Part shown: positions 49,526-56,392 of the stretch, piece after piece
How positions within the stretch are numbered: position 1 is the first letter of the stretch
How the letters are laid out: every line of letters begins with the position of its first letter
Assembly (NCBI GenBank): GCA_951406725.2
Contig: OX597816.1
Coordinates: forward strand, 85,436,001-85,500,000
Reading direction: 5' to 3'
Origin: Octopus vulgaris
Taxonomy: Eukaryota
Length of the DNA: 64,000 nt
Made by a program: the position numbers and the translations under genes
The notes under the pieces: model-generated
The model's database searches: none
Told to the model about the DNA's origin: nothing
What the model saw: the letters and a program-made list of their open reading frames with translations, nothing else

Positions 49526-50756
49526 AATACATGCGCTAACCTAACATGCATATATACACATAAACATGTCTAGACACACATACACACATAATCTTATTGA
49601 AAATATCAATATACACTTATATATGATAGGCGCGTACACTTGTATTTGAATAGCAAATATAAAAGCGAATCTGAACTGATGAATAATTTTGTGTATATGA
49701 GTACATGTATATTAATGCAAAATCTATTCTTTAACAATTTAAATTTCTGCTCAAAATTAGGCAGAACAATAATTGTATGTCCATTCACAAACCAAGAGCG
49801 TACGTTGCAATTCATATATTTAACTGTATTAACTAATCAGTTATTTTCATTTCCATTGCATCCACATGTTACATGGTATTTTGACGTTCTCAAACGGTGC
49901 AATATGTAAGTATGCAAATTGATCACATTTACAAGCTCGTTTTCTTACTGCCAAGACTCACATTTTCTAAAATATTAACATCTAGGCTACGCAAATCATT
50001 AAAACAGACAGATCCAGTATACGTGTATAAAATCAGCTGACAAAATAATTATAATCCAAGTTTAACTTCAGATTCTAGTGCATTAAATAAATTAGAAATT
50101 TACGTTTACGAAATCAGAATCTTGAGGCGTGCAATATAGAATTTAAAGGAAAATACGAAATATAATTTCAAGTAACGAACAAATAAAAGCCGATAAAATA
50201 TACTGGATGAAAATAAGACAGTTACAATAAAAACTCCATTAAAATATATAACAAAAATAGAAATAGTAAAAAATCACACAAAATACATAAAAGCTTAAAA
50301 AAGACTGAACACATCTATATACACACACGTTCATAAATACACACAAGACACCTAGATATGTGTGTATGTATATATATATATATATCAATAAGAAAATGGA
50401 GGGGGTCAATAGGTGGTTCACCAACTTTTAGATATTATATTATGATTCACTTATTTATTTTGGATAGATATTATCCCTTAGTTGGTTGGATTCACAACCT
50501 CTAACTTTTTGGAGTTATATATATATATATATATATATATATATATATATTTGAGTAGTTGAATGAATTATCTTATTAAGGATAATTCGAAAGATAACCG
50601 ATACTTGGGTAGCAAATTCACATCAGAAAGAACACGGTTGAAGTTACGTCCCTTGGGCATAGACTACGTGCTTTCGTGCGGAAATTTGTATGTTTATTTT
50701 AAAAATATAGGTTTATGAAAGAATGGAGTTGAATGACTTGTTAACAAATTTCCTTT

Positions 50757-50841
50757 ATTTTCGACATATATTTCGAAGGCTGCATATTCCTAATTCCGAA
50801 GGAATAAGGAGTACATTATGTAGATTTCTCATCAGGAAAGG
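50757..50841 (-). ncRNA. Mirror-copy hammerhead on the minus strand
   Basis: Reverse-complement arm reads CUGAUGA...CUUC-GAAAUAUAUGUC-GAAA. Confidence 0.72.
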
Positions 50842-50883
50842 CAAGGAACTTATGTCGACATCAAAATGCACAAAAGTTCCTTG

Positions 50884-50968
50884 CCTTTCCTGATGAGAAA
50901 TCTGCATAATGTACTCCTTATTCCTTCGGAATTAGGAATATGCAGCCTTCGAAACATCTGTCGAAAAT
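50884..50968 (+). ncRNA. Type I hammerhead ribozyme with extended stem II
   Basis: UUUC-CUGAUGA-GAAAUCUGCAUA...UAUGCAGCCUUC-GAAACAUCUGUC-GAAA, GUC at 50960-62. Confidence 0.8.
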
Positions 50969-51184
50969 AAAGGAAATTTGTTAACAAGTCGTTCAACTCC
51001 ATTCTTTCATAAACTTATATATATATATATATATATATATATATATATATATATATATATATATATATATATATATATATATATATATATATATATATAT
51101 ATATATATATATATATAATATTAATAATATGACCACAAGAGAATGGATGGGACCTCGATATTATATAGAGGAATTCATCATTAA

Positions 51185-51290
51185 TATGTGACAATTAGTC
51201 GGTTGCCATAATAAAATTCAGAGTTACGGATGTCGGGGCGGAAGACTGCTGCGGCATCTCCTCAGATATTAAGCCAAACAAAAATGTTAT
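51185..51290 (-). repeat. Inverted, diverged copy of 51955-52062 with a degenerate hammerhead (CUGAGGA...GUAAC)
   Basis: Its reverse complement aligns by eye with 51955-52062 across about 105 bp. Confidence 0.75.
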
Positions 51291-51971
51291 GAAAATGACC
51301 GTTATTAAAGGGAAATTACTATGAAGATGACCGTTATTAAGACAAACAAAAGAGCTATGACAATGACCGTTAAATAATGAGGCACACATGTCTAAATATT
51401 TGTTCCGGTTTTTGTCCTCCCAAGATCATAGAAAGAACCTGATTTTATATTGAGTCCACGTACAGGCATTTCATTTCTTATTTATATTTTTATATTTTCG
51501 CATATTTTAGTATTTTTATATATTCTATTGCTTTACATATTTATATATTTTTATCTGTACATTACCTTTCACTCTGCATATTTGTGCATGTGCGTATAGA
51601 GACGTGTATATGAATATAATTGTGCGTGTATGGGTATATATACGTGTGTGTGTGCGTGTGCGCGGCTTTGAATATGTGTATGTTTACATATGTATGGATG
51701 CATATATATATACATATATATATATGTGTGTGTGTGTGTGTGTGTGTGTGTGTGTGTGTGTATCTGAGTGTGCATGCATGAGTTTCACACGAGTGTGAGT
51801 GAGTATATGCATATATGCACATGCACGCGGGTGTGCGTGTGCGCATGTGTATCTATATACATGCGAGTATACTCGGATCCCATGAACGTGGTTTTACCTT
51901 CGAGTAATTTTACTTTCTCCCTATTCGGGTAATTTCCTTTTCTTTCACGTTCATAGTATTTTTGTTTGCCT

Positions 51972-53339: not shown

Positions 53340-53825
53340 TCATATCTCAGTCATGTATGATTAGCAGCTACTCGAAATCCGGAAAAAAAAGAGTAAATAT
53401 GGAGAATCCACCTGTTAGTAAAAACGTACACAAATACCAGCACAAGGAATACTAGCGGAACCTCTTATCAAAACATCTGTGGAGTGTAAGCATATCAGGC
53501 CGGATATTGTTGATTAAGACACAGAAGAAAATGTATGTACCATGACAGGGATCAGCTGTCCTGCTGAAGTGAGTATCTCATTGAAAAATCAATGAGATCG
53601 AAAAGAACTGTTGACAGCTCCAGATTTTATATCCGGATTACAAACTGATATCTATATCAATAATAAGTGGAATACTTGGTTTTGTAATTAAATACCTAAC
53701 CATCAGTAATGGATCAGCTTGGATTTTCAGGAAAAGAAATCAACCAACTGATTAGCACATTATTAATACAATCTGTAAACGGAAAAGCAAAACTATGCAA
53801 GACGTTTTTTTCAAGCTTCAAAAGG
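53340..53825 (+). pseudogene. Decayed RLE-type non-LTR element 3' end (a different family from the Dong copies)
   Basis: IKTSVECKHIRPDIV..ISCPAEVSI..YPDYK..IISGILGFV..QLGFS..LCKTFFK. Confidence 0.65.
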
Positions 53826-54035
53826 TGTTATTATTTTCATTATCCACATTCCAACGATGAAGCTTTGTAGCTTTGTTACAAACCAGCTCCTCCCTCAAAG
53901 TAAGAATTTAAATAGTCAAAAGCAGAAAGGAACATACATACATACATGTTTACACACACGCACACACACATACACACGGGAACACATGCACACACAGGCA
54001 CACACGCACACGCACGCATACACACACCTAATATA

Positions 54036-54825
54036 TCAGGTCATCTCATAAGTTCTGTCCGAAATTTGAATAAGGAAAACAAGTGATCAAATGTTATATT
54101 TAATTGAAATTTAATCATCAATGTTCTTTGCCTGATTATCTATGACTTCCTTCCATCTATTTACAAGCTTTTTAATTACATCAATGTAAAATTATTTTGG
54201 TTTCAAAGTGAAAAACTCTGAAATGTCAATCTCGAACTCCTTCTAGCTTGCGAAAATTATGTCCCCCAAATGATTCTGTAAACTATGAAACGAATAATAG
54301 TCCGAAGGAGCAAGGTTGTGAGAATAAGGTGGATGAGGAATATTTTCCCAACCAAGCTCTTCGCTCTTCTGTGATGTGATCTTTGCAGTGTTGTGTCGAG
54401 CATTGTCCTGATGAAACATCACTCCTTTTCGATTCACTAAAGCAGGTCTTTTCTCTTGAGAGTTTGATTCAAACGTTTTAATTGCTGACAGTAGACGTGA
54501 GCATTGATTGTTGCATTAGGCGGTAACTATTCAAAGTAAATTACTCCTTTGCAATCCCACCAGATAGAGAGCAGAAACTTTTTTCTCATGAAGTTTCCTT
54601 CTCGGTTGTGGTTGAGCTTTTTCCCTTTTACCAACCCATTGCTTACGACGTTTAATATTTCGATAGAAACCTATTTTTCGTCCCCAATCACAAGTCTATC
54701 CAAAAAGGGTCAAATGAGTTTATTAGAATGGATAGAAGAGCAGATGTTAACTCGAGATTTGCGGTTGCTTTCGGACAATTCATGAGGCACCCATTTTCCA
54801 AGTTTAGCCAATTCTTCAACTGATA
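54036..54825 (-). mobile_element. 5'-truncated mariner transposon
   Basis: WVPHELS, LVIGDEK, FHQDNARH, PHPPYSHNLAPSDY. One terminus (TA-TCAGGTCATCTCATAAGTTCTGTCCG) is at 54034; no partner TIR was seen. Confidence 0.88.
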
Positions 54826-54914
54826 ACAGGCTGCAACAAATAAGAAAATATTCAAAAATGGATTCGAATCTTAGAAGACTTCTGACCTAGGAATTCTGAA
54901 AATATTGGTTTAAC

Positions 54915-55118
54915 ATTTTAGCACAAGACCAGCTACTTCGGGTGAGGAGTTAGTCGATTACACGACACCAATGATCAGTTGGTATATATTGTCTCGACCT
55001 CGAAATTGTTAAAAGTATAATCGACTTCGTTGGAATATAAACTCAGAAAATAAAGACGGAGGAAATGCCGCTAAGTATTTTGTTCGGCGTTCTAACAATT
55101 CTGCCAGCTCACCGTTTT
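54915..55118 (-). mobile_element. SINE family B
   Basis: GAAATGCCGCTAAGTATTTTGTTCGGCGTTCTAACAATTCTGCCAGCTCACCG is the reverse complement of the family B head. Confidence 0.75.
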
Positions 55119-55822
55119 AGGATTCCGGAAATATTACTCACGTATAAGTTAGTCTCAATTATAAAGAGATTTTTGAAAGTGTTACAATGAAGTAACAAAC
55201 AATTTTACAGATACAAAGAACAAGGGAATTATAAAACTAAAATCTCATCCTTTTCAGAATTCGAGTGACTCAAGACACCGCCATCTCCCCAACATATGTA
55301 ACCCTGGTTTTAACAGTTGTAACCAACATGACAATATCAGCTGCGTCAAGGATACGAATGTAATGGAAATCAAATATCGTTTGTAATTGGTTAAATTGAA
55401 CTTGAAGGTGAAGATTAAAAATAACTGGAAGTAAAGCTATATGCACTATGCGGATTCAGTAGAGGAATAATATTAAATATCTAAAAATGCGTTAAGACAG
55501 TTAACCGAGAGAAAATGAATAAATAAATTATTTCTGTCATGAGATATATAGAAACAGAACATAAGTAGACCAAAGACATATATCCGAGAATTTAAGCATA
55601 AATGAGAGATAAAGTGCACTGCAGACGGTTGGAGGAAAGTTTAGGAAGGAATATTATAGACGCATTATACTAATACTCAAAGTGCAAAAAGATTTGGTAC
55701 TAGGCATCACTATTGATGTCATCACTGAGCACTTCACACAGAAACACATACACATGTATATATCTGTATATATCTGTATACTCACACACACATATACATA
55801 TGTATATATATATATATATATA

Positions 55823-56392
55823 TTTATTGAAATGGATAATTGAATTATCTTGTTACGGATTATTCAAATTATAACCGATACCTGGGTAGCAAAAATCACA
55901 ACAGAAAAATCACGGTTGAGGTTACGACCATGGAGTCTCAAAACCGTGCCTTAGTGCGGAAATTTGAAGTTTTATATATTTAGTGAGGGAAGAAATGGAG
56001 CTGAACGAAGATTTTACAAAATTCCTTTTTATTATTTTCTACATATGTTTCAAAGGCTGCAAAGTCCCTAATTCGGATTGAATAAGGAGACCATTTTGCA
56101 GGTTTCTCTTCAGGAAAATCCAGGAACTTAAATCTCCAACAAAATGCGCAGCAAGCTTTTCGACAAGCGCTCTCTAGGAGCCCATGGTATGAATGGCACA
56201 AAACTGTCTCTCAAAATGCGTTGACGTCGGGCTGGGTAAAAGCCGACTTTTTCGTTGGCTTTCACCCAGCTGCAAAATGGTCTCCTTATTCAATCCGAAT
56301 TAGGGACTTTGCAGCCTTTGAAACATATGTAGAAAATAATAAAAAGGAATTTTGTAAAATCTTCGTTCAGCTCCATTTCTTCCATCACTAAA
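55823..56392. mobile_element. Fold-back PLE-like cassette 2, homologous to cassette 1, between (TA)n tracts
   Basis: Arms at about 55973-56101 and 56270-56397 with one mismatch seen. It shares the GAATTATCTT..TAACCGATAC.TGGGTAGC..GTGCGGAAATTTG leader with 50551-50700. Confidence 0.85.
56034..56118 (-). ncRNA. Type I hammerhead ribozyme with extended stem II
   Basis: UUUUC-CUGAAGA-GAAACCUGCAAA...UUUGCAGCCUUU-GAAACAUAUGUA-GAAAA, with palindromic stem III ACAUAUGU. Confidence 0.8.

What the first reader, a model, noticed from the sequence alone, without database searches (positions are those of the whole stretch)
50551..56392. Two related fold-back hammerhead cassettes in (TA)n with a long covarying stem II
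Seen: 50551-51017 and 55823-56392 share the layout (TA)n, ~150-bp leader, arm, spacer, inverted arm, (TA)n. The arms are near-identical within a cassette but clearly diverged between cassettes, so the fold-back probably formed independently twice. The arm is a type I hammerhead with a ~54-nt stem II that shows compensatory change (CUGCAUA/UAUGCAG versus CUGCAAA/UUUGCAG) and a palindromic ACAUAUGU stem III. Established: Penelope-like elements carry minimal hammerheads in their pLTRs and often insert with an inverted 5' pLTR. Inference: this is a non-coding, (TA)n-targeting, ribozyme-bearing PLE derivative (retrozyme-like) with an atypical large stem II under structural selection.
Basis: partly seen in the sequence, partly recalled or inferred. 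Interest (0 to 1): 0.78.

Follow-up and report, generated by a model that had tools for sequence, protein, structure and literature searches.

The report
Truncated Penelope retrotransposon ends, oversized hammerhead
The two fold-backs are short, inverted end-fragments of a large family of protein-coding Penelope-like retrotransposons, not a separate non-coding element; their predicted self-cutting RNA motif has an unusually long stem preserved by compensating changes, and the fixed pairing of their two ends points to a likely two-primer copying mechanism.

Summary
Both cassettes are 5'-truncated, inverted 3' ends of coding, (TA)n-associated, Hydra-like Penelope elements (about 3.6 kb; RT plus C-terminal GIY-YIG; open frames near 900 aa). 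They come from two subfamilies, and each inversion junction is unique in the genome, so they do not amplify as a non-coding family. The 'leader' is the PLE tail (about 155 nt); the 'spacer' is ordinary 3'UTR.

What survives is a type I hammerhead core with a 54-55-nt stem II (published Hydra rows: 26 nt at most). Seven of 20 pairs show compensatory change (tree simulation P<=0.0013). The stem III palindrome changes while staying self-complementary, as a dimer would need. Cleavage is untested.

Found on the way: in B-anchored samples the adjoining inverted arm ended at the internal site A in 109 of 118 cases and never at B. In 47 of 110 scored pairs the arms do not overlap, which favours twin internal priming over self-priming fold-back. 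The lineage lacks the Hydra CxCx5C linker yet stays at (TA)n. Verdict: new variant of a known kind.

The parts
50516..50550 (.). (TA)n flank at end B of cassette 1
50551..50705 (-). In coding tandems it lies between the hammerhead and the next ORF start
50706..50875 (-). B-arm of cassette 1 continuing into the 3'UTR; 5' stop about 112 nt before the cleavage site
   Evidence: L295
50759..50839 (-). complete type I hammerhead core, 54-nt stem II (50775-50828), predicted cleavage after 50763
50870..51019 (+). A-arm of cassette 1; starts about 92 nt before the cleavage site, ends at site A; junction unique in the genome
50886..50966 (+). complete type I hammerhead core, stem II 50897-50950, predicted cleavage after C50962
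51016..51121 (.). (TA)n flank at end A of cassette 1
55803..55823 (.). (TA)n flank at end B of cassette 2
55823..55978 (-). PLE tail of the second subfamily
   Evidence: 95% to coding L095
55979..56247 (-).
56036..56117 (-). complete type I hammerhead core, 55-nt stem II (56052-56106), predicted cleavage after A56040
56248..56269 (+). short sense piece that opens the A-arm at nearly the same element position where the B-arm stops, followed by a roughly 130-nt deletion at a 3-nt microhomology; junction unique in the genome
56270..56398 (+). A-arm of cassette 2; lacks the CUGAAGA half of the core; ends at site A
56392..56497 (.). (TA)n flank at end A of cassette 2

Best explanation
Both cassettes are short, inverted 3'-end fragments of a large family of protein-coding Hydra-like Penelope retroelements, likely made when the element's reverse transcriptase-endonuclease nicks both strands of a (TA)n tract and primes twice on the element RNA, once at site A and once at site B, and they carry a predicted hammerhead ribozyme whose 54-55-nt stem II is preserved by compensating changes and which would likely cut only as a dimer.

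SHOWN: the element anatomy (5'UTR - ORF about 890 aa - 3'UTR about 600 nt - hammerhead - about 60 nt - site A - 155-nt tail - site B); linkage to coding copies; unique junctions; the A+B rule; covariation.

INFERRED, with odds. (i) One nick primes at B and the other at A; the two cDNAs stop early and their ends are joined by microhomology (about 0.6). If the B-primed strand stops before A, the result is a plain inversion. If it runs past A (strand displacement, or a second RNA), the result is a fold-back like these two. (ii) The shared 5' stops 142-170 nt before the cleavage site mark an RNA 5' end, possibly a pLTR promoter start, so many short copies would come from the transcript's 5' pLTR (about 0.4). 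(iii) The ribozyme is dimer-dependent and probably protein-assisted (about 0.65). (iv) The long stem II serves as a folding or protein-binding handle making up for the weak 4-bp AU-rich stem I (about 0.35; no test distinguishes this). Identity as truncated coding PLE ends alone: about 0.93.
For: CODING LINKAGE: the sequence upstream of copies is RT (FDVPMG, GGLYRDD) then GIY-YIG. An RT search gave 8,610 first-look candidates; 150 were scored and all 150 matched, many with 899-aa open frames. ESM Atlas neighbours include RVT_1 clusters (17-48% of members) and a GIY-YIG-named cluster at 0.96 (leads only). L031 has the same B-arm/A-arm plan with RT-EN inside the A-arm. ORF sequence lay within the fetched 2-3 kb in 4 of 90, 20 of 70, 5 of 28 and 15 of 30 loci of four samples (the last sample came from a 296-nt query that favours long copies).

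A+B RULE: in 90 B-anchored cassette-1-type loci, 65 had an adjoining inverted arm; 64 ended at A, 1 ended 30 nt past A in AT-rich sequence, 0 at B. In 70 youngest-type loci: 45 at A, 5 complex or other, 3 ran off the locus, 17 had none, 0 at B. All 28 exact A-end matches: 17 partners at B, 0 at A, 7 none, 4 off the locus. The arms do not overlap in 33 of 65 and 14 of 45 pairs. Among overlapping pairs both arms start within 5 nt in 12 of 32 (permutation mean 2.6) and 7 of 31 (mean 1.35). Frangieh 2024 (PMC11167929) shows for another PLE two internal RT start sites bounding the tail and nicking and extension of both strands.

STEM II: 41 both-side-changed cells against at most 10 in slid controls. 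7 of 20 pairs are compensated; neutral simulation on the tree gives a mean of about 1.6, P<=0.0013. One subfamily holds G-U intermediates between two others. STEM III: 228 of 261 motif hits are perfect palindromes; the youngest subfamily is fixed for the doubly changed palindrome (71 of 71). (TA)n lies at A or B in 75 of 78 hammerhead-anchored copies, against 24% background.
Against: No cleavage data and no raw RNA reads. Rfam gave 0 hits; Pfam gave no family above threshold for the ORFs and PDB no hits. Whole-motif minimum-energy folds do not give the catalytic fold (z -3.25, -1.46, +0.06), and RNAalifold recovered only 8 of the stem II pairs. Stem II pairs 4, 5 and 7 are broken in 17, 11 and 12 of 33 rows. 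The structure was derived from these sequences, I shifted one gap in 7 rows before the simulation, and the 33 rows were hand-picked from 106 distinct motifs. In vitro, Frangieh 2024 saw no strand difference in start site and no need for cleavage. A one-sided tail is already described (PMC3846280, PMC8557442). Two loci with matched starts (L244, L245) are local duplicates. Whether (TA)n pre-existed was not tested.
Confidence: 0.72

Rival explanations
1. A distinct non-autonomous, retrozyme-like family that amplifies as a fold-back or circular unit.
For: Most copies are short and non-coding (86 of 90 cassette-1-type loci show no ORF within 2-3 kb). 5' stops cluster 142-170 nt before the cleavage site (18 of 25 B-arms reaching it; 10 of 34 in the youngest subfamily). 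Two loci on different contigs (L066, L078) share one structure (not followed up).
Against: Both window junctions occur once in the genome. Truncation points are scattered. The sequence is 95-99% identical to ends of coding copies. No short tandem monomers were seen, which define metazoan retrozymes (PMC7229834 passages).
Confidence: 0.05
2. Same identity, but the inversions arise by self-priming or fold-back of one cDNA or an antisense template (Arkhipova 2013), and the A end comes from microhomology between the internal TATA and the target.
For: There is an excess of arms starting at the same element position (12 of 32; 7 of 31), and palindromic junctions such as L189. The window's cassette 2 fits this pattern. 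The model is in print (PMC3846280 passages).
Against: It cannot make non-overlapping arms (33 of 65; 14 of 45), nor A-arms that reach further upstream than the B-arm (26 of 45 in the youngest subfamily). Matched starts are also expected if both primers run off one RNA end.
Confidence: 0.18
3. The long stem II is conserved for a non-catalytic role (protein binding or RT pausing), and the hammerhead rarely or never cuts in vivo.
For: There is no excess of 5' ends just after the cleavage site in unbiased samples (3 of 90; 1 of 70). PLE hammerheads cut poorly in vitro and were dispensable for insertion (PMC4209133, PMC11167929).
Against: The core nucleotides are invariant across subfamilies only 67-75% identical (partly by selection on the motif). 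Stem III stays self-complementary. This view is compatible with the main identity.
Confidence: 0.3

Closest known systems
Hydra clade of EN+ Penelope-like elements (Craig et al. 2021, PMC8557442; includes Hydra-1_Obim)
   Same: Single ORF with RT and C-terminal GIY-YIG; DKT motif; no CCHH; CxxC and CxH around the conserved E and N; (TA)n association; type I hammerhead near the 3' end; inverted 5'-truncated copy.
   Different: About 3.6 kb rather than under 3 kb; RWK reads RW(L); the CxCx5C linker is absent and an N/S-rich stretch of about 130-150 aa stands there (plus a shorter insert earlier); stem II is 53-55 nt against at most 26 nt in the 26 Hydra rows of File S2; tail is about 155 nt against 30-40 bp. 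Its hammerhead and N-terminus differ from Hydra-1_Obim as printed.
PAc / Poseidon of Anolis (Frangieh et al. 2024, PMC11167929)
   Same: Two fixed 3' ends bounding a tail; AT-rich targets; hammerhead in the pLTR.
   Different: Different clade; much longer tail here; in this genome the two ends are strictly split one per arm, whereas in vitro no strand difference in start site was seen.
Minimal PLE hammerheads (Cervera and de la Pena 2014, PMC4209133)
   Same: Type I, short stem I, palindromic stem III, predicted dimer; opposite-strand pairs 100-700 bp apart are already noted there.
   Different: Their helix II is 6-8 bp; here it is a 12-bp helix, an internal loop and an 8-bp hairpin.
PLE-X1_sMoe hammerhead of spike moss (File S2 of PMC8557442)
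   Same: A similarly long stem II region (9 bp + 35-nt loop, about 54 nt in all), so the length has a precedent among PLEs.
   Different: Plant, endonuclease-lacking, Chlamys-related element, flagged as deviating from the canonical structure; I saw no covariation analysis for it.
Metazoan non-LTR retrozymes (Cervera and de la Pena 2020, PMC7229834)
   Same: Short non-coding genomic copies carrying a type I hammerhead.
   Different: Retrozymes are 150-450-bp head-to-tail repeats expressed as circles and lack a coding parent; these cassettes are one-off inverted truncations of a coding element.

Membership tests
EN+ Penelope-like element | Single ORF with RT and GIY-YIG endonuclease linked to the sequence | tested here: met
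   Atlas leads; Pfam and PDB gave no hit
EN+ Penelope-like element | pLTR tandem or inverted structure with a one-sided tail | tested here: met
   3,624-bp head-to-tail units; inverted arms with the tail on one side
Hydra clade | DKT motif, no CCHH, CxxC and CxH flanking E and N, C-terminal EN | tested here: met
   alignment read against section 11 of PMC8557442
Hydra clade | RWK motif | tested here: inconclusive
   RW kept, K replaced by L
Hydra clade | CxCx5C linker before the endonuclease | tested here: not met
   absent in both own ORFs aligned; present in 9 of 10 outside homologs, the tenth lacking the EN region
Hydra clade | Short element (generally under 3 kb) | tested here: not met
   unit 3,624 bp
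Hydra clade | (TA)n insertion preference | tested here: met
   75 of 78 against 24% background; empty sites not examined
Hydra clade | Phylogenetic placement with reference Hydra RTs | not tested
   reference proteins were seen only in the paper's supplement; hence 'Hydra-like derived lineage'
Type I hammerhead ribozyme | Conserved core CUGANGA / GAAA / NUH with three helices | tested here: met
   3 of the 4 window arms are complete
Type I hammerhead ribozyme | Match to an Rfam hammerhead model | tested here: not met
   0 hits at gathering threshold; E-value mode not run
Type I hammerhead ribozyme | Self-cleavage | not testable with these tools
   only contig-level runs were listed
Non-LTR retrozyme | Short head-to-tail tandem monomers | tested here: not met
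   none in the loci mapped
Non-LTR retrozyme | Amplifies as its own unit, apart from a coding parent | tested here: not met
   unique junctions; 95-99% identity to coding ends
Non-LTR retrozyme | Abundant small circular RNA | not testable with these tools
   no raw RNA reads available

The most novel reading that the evidence does not exclude
PLE inversions are made by obligate twin internal priming: one dimeric RT-endonuclease complex assigns site A to one target nick and site B to the other. In this lineage the enlarged, covarying hammerhead stem II is the RNA handle that positions the protein, and (TA)n targeting needs no zinc-finger linker. The family's intact young copies would make the PLE integration mechanism and the role of its ribozyme directly testable.
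Probability: 0.25. Interest if true: 0.75.

Novelty: new variant of a known kind. Interest (0 to 1): 0.45.

Why it matters
How PLEs form their inverted structures, why they favour microsatellites, and what their hammerheads do are named as open questions in PMC8557442. This family gives a countable rule (one A end plus one B end; often no overlap) that separates twin priming from self-priming. It appears to be a counter-example to the proposed link between the linker zinc finger and (TA)n targeting. It adds a hammerhead variant that Rfam's gathering thresholds miss, with at least 939 exact motif matches in one genome. The cassettes themselves are ordinary dead fragments.

Tried and rejected
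(1) In vivo cleavage footprint: 7 of 30 tail-selected copies began 4-12 nt after the cleavage site, but unbiased samples gave 3 of 90 and 1 of 70. Rejected.
(2) With 30 loci the 5'-stop cluster looked absent from the youngest subfamily; with 70 it is present, though weaker. That contrast is withdrawn, so promoter start and RT drop-off stay unresolved.
(3) Covariation in the tail: none, 0 of 8 predicted pairs.
(4) Naiad identity: rejected, the endonuclease is C-terminal.
One locus is no survey.
(6) RNA: no RNA holder listed. Contigs of four coded runs hold the family and show loose (TA)n ends at site A, but cannot show expression or RNA ends.
(7) Empty target sites: not tested, since contigs cannot span the (TA)n runs.
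(8) The script's ORF count for cassette-1-type loci was corrupted by TA repeats in the reference; it was replaced. References held an extra upstream pLTR; only the 3' copy was scored.
(9) The pattern allows stem II of 45-53 nt only, so it leaves out the two window subfamilies.
(10) Earlier scan notes: nothing found.
(11) Luense et al. on dimeric PLE hammerheads is not held and may bear on novelty.
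Full report
OBSERVATION. The two cassettes exist as described: inverted arms of 156 nt (95%) and 129 nt (99%), (TA)n on both sides, and 75% identity between cassettes over 317 nt. A motif scan finds complete type I hammerhead cores with 54-55 nt between CUGANGA and GAAA in three of the four arms; the right arm of cassette 2 has lost the first half of the core. 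The same scan gave one other hit in the window, at 23420, not followed up. Rfam finds nothing at gathering thresholds. Each stem II folds better than 200 of 200 shuffles, but whole-motif folds are weaker and do not show the catalytic fold.

WHAT THEY ARE. The arm of cassette 1 gave 1,427 first-look candidates (40 scored, 49 matches at 95-100%) and cassette 2 gave 1,700 (40 scored) in a 2.8-Gb genome. No call named the organism; I suspect an octopus-like cephalopod from genome size and repeat content. Longer copies run upstream into a 3'UTR, a GIY-YIG domain and an RT. An RT query gave 8,610 candidates, with all 150 scored matching and many 899-aa open frames. Twenty fetched loci show a roughly 890-aa ORF, about 600 nt of 3'UTR, the hammerhead, site A about 60 nt after the cleavage site, a tail of about 155 nt, and site B. 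Head-to-tail units measure 3,624 bp. Cassette 1 matches the end of coding L031 at 97-99%, and L031 has the same plan with RT-EN inside one arm; cassette 2 matches coding L095 at 95% over 426 nt. Each window junction occurs once in the genome. The cassettes are therefore one-off truncated insertions from two subfamilies. Exact-match lower bounds: 939 hammerhead motifs with 45-53-nt stem II, and 510 and 626 tail ends of two subfamily groups; reversed-pattern controls gave 0.

CLADE. The protein has DKT, no CCHH, and CxxC and CxH around E and N, as Craig et al. define Hydra, and is 33-46% identical to 29 unnamed homologs over the RT. It fails two Hydra features: length, and the CxCx5C linker, which is absent from both own ORFs aligned while 9 of 10 outside homologs have it. 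It still sits at (TA)n in 75 of 78 hammerhead-anchored copies against 24% background. N-rich inserts in PLE ORFs are known from Adineta. Pfam and PDB gave no support; the Atlas gave RT and GIY-YIG leads. I file it as a derived Hydra-like lineage, with no tree against reference Hydra proteins.

THE HAMMERHEAD. From 106 distinct motifs I aligned 33 spanning the subfamilies. With the named structure, 90.8% of cells pair and 41 cells change on both sides, against at most 10 in slid controls; the number of pairs with such changes (8) did not beat the column shuffle (93 of 500). After shifting one gap in 7 rows, 7 of 20 stem II pairs carry two Watson-Crick types differing on both sides. Unconstrained simulation on the tree at matched divergence gives a mean of about 1.6 (P<=0.0013) and 73-75% pairing against 85% observed (P<=0.007). 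One subfamily holds U-G and G-U at two pairs that are U-A and G-C in its sister and C-G and A-U in the youngest. Three basal pairs are often broken. Stem III is a perfect palindrome in 228 of 261 motif hits (overlapping loci and a few spurious hits included); the youngest subfamily changed both central bases and kept the palindrome (71 of 71), and a 2-nt deletion allele also keeps it. Those bases would be unpaired in a monomer, so this argues for the dimer described for PLE hammerheads. Published Hydra stem II regions reach 26 nt at most in 26 rows, but spike-moss PLE-X1_sMoe has about 54 nt, so the length has a precedent in another clade. The one outside Hydra-like locus I could read has a short stem II.

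HOW THE FOLD-BACKS FORM. Taking 90 of the first 100 listed B-ends of 510 (cassette-1 type) and the first 70 listed of 626 (youngest), the adjoining inverted arm ended at A in 64 of 65 and 45 of 53 cases and never at B. Among all 28 exact A-ends the partner ended at B in 17 and never at A. A one-sided tail is known; the counts add two points. First, 33 of 65 and 14 of 45 arm pairs share no sequence, and in 26 of 45 the A-arm reaches further upstream than the B-arm; self-priming cannot make these. Second, overlapping arms start at the same element position more often than chance (12 of 32 against 2.6; 7 of 31 against 1.35), as if both ran off one RNA end. Frangieh et al. showed for a Poseidon element that both strands are nicked and extended, that RT starts at two internal sites bounding the tail, that a protein dimer is predicted, and that hammerhead cleavage is protein-assisted but not needed for insertion. 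I infer twin internal priming at A and B with microhomology joining. Stops cluster 142-170 nt before the cleavage site (18 of 25 B-arms reaching it in cassette-1-type copies; 10 of 34 in the youngest), next to CRE-, TATA- and initiator-like motifs in some subfamilies (motif names recalled). A transcript start there is possible but unproven. A cleavage-site footprint did not replicate.

LITERATURE SEEN. PMC8557442: abstract, passages, section 11, supplement searches and supplement part 2 of 59. PMC11167929: parts 1-2 of 4 (all of the main text; its supplements not read). PMC4209133, PMC3846280, PMC7229834 and PMC6765202: passages only. Luense et al.: not held, known only through a citation; it may describe longer variants. 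Searches found no paper describing this long-stem family or twin priming in PLEs; subscription papers, Repbase and Dfam were not searchable. Twin priming in LINE-1 is recalled, not read.

VERDICT. The cassettes are ordinary PLE debris, but they sample an unusual, recently active lineage with a covarying oversized hammerhead, a missing linker and a clean end-pairing rule. New variant of a known kind; interest 0.45.

Noticed in passing
window 51122-52062: A third, older fold-back directly beside cassette 1 (arms 51186-51298 and 51945-52057, 84%). It belongs to a second Hydra-like lineage (1,196 candidates, 77-91% identity; 4 of 30 loci match RT or EN by tblastn) with a 30-nt stem II and a tail of about 70 nt. 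Its left arm carries the tail and its right arm ends at the inner site, as in the A+B rule. Its fold is not better than shuffles.
   Followed up: partly
L112:1218-3902; L101:1474-4173: The ORF lacks the CxCx5C linker that Craig et al. tie to (TA)n targeting and has N/S-rich inserts, yet the family stays at (TA)n.
   Followed up: partly
L096, L097 (G000:C1:119512000-119527000): Near-identical full-length head-to-tail units of 3,624 bp with no (TA)n between units; this would put several hammerheads in one transcript.
   Followed up: partly
window 50551-50705 and 51000-51019: Sites A and B are each preceded by a similar short ATTC-rich motif and end in TA-like sequence; a possible shared RT start signal.
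   Followed up: no
window 50551-50705 (tail): B-arms often stop 114-140 nt after the cleavage site (20 of 90), near an invariant 8-nt motif; the tail shows conservation but no covariation.
   Followed up: partly
L066 and L078: Two loci on different contigs share nearly the same two-armed structure; a segmental duplication or a re-mobilised composite.
   Followed up: no
G000:C1:178104250-178104319: A copy whose stem II has become a nearly perfect 50-nt hairpin.
   Followed up: no
window 23420-23477: Another hammerhead-core-like match with a 30-nt insert; could be chance.
   Followed up: no
L104:5222 onward; L106 minus strand: Further short hammerhead-like motifs in flanking DNA, probably from other PLE families.
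   Followed up: no
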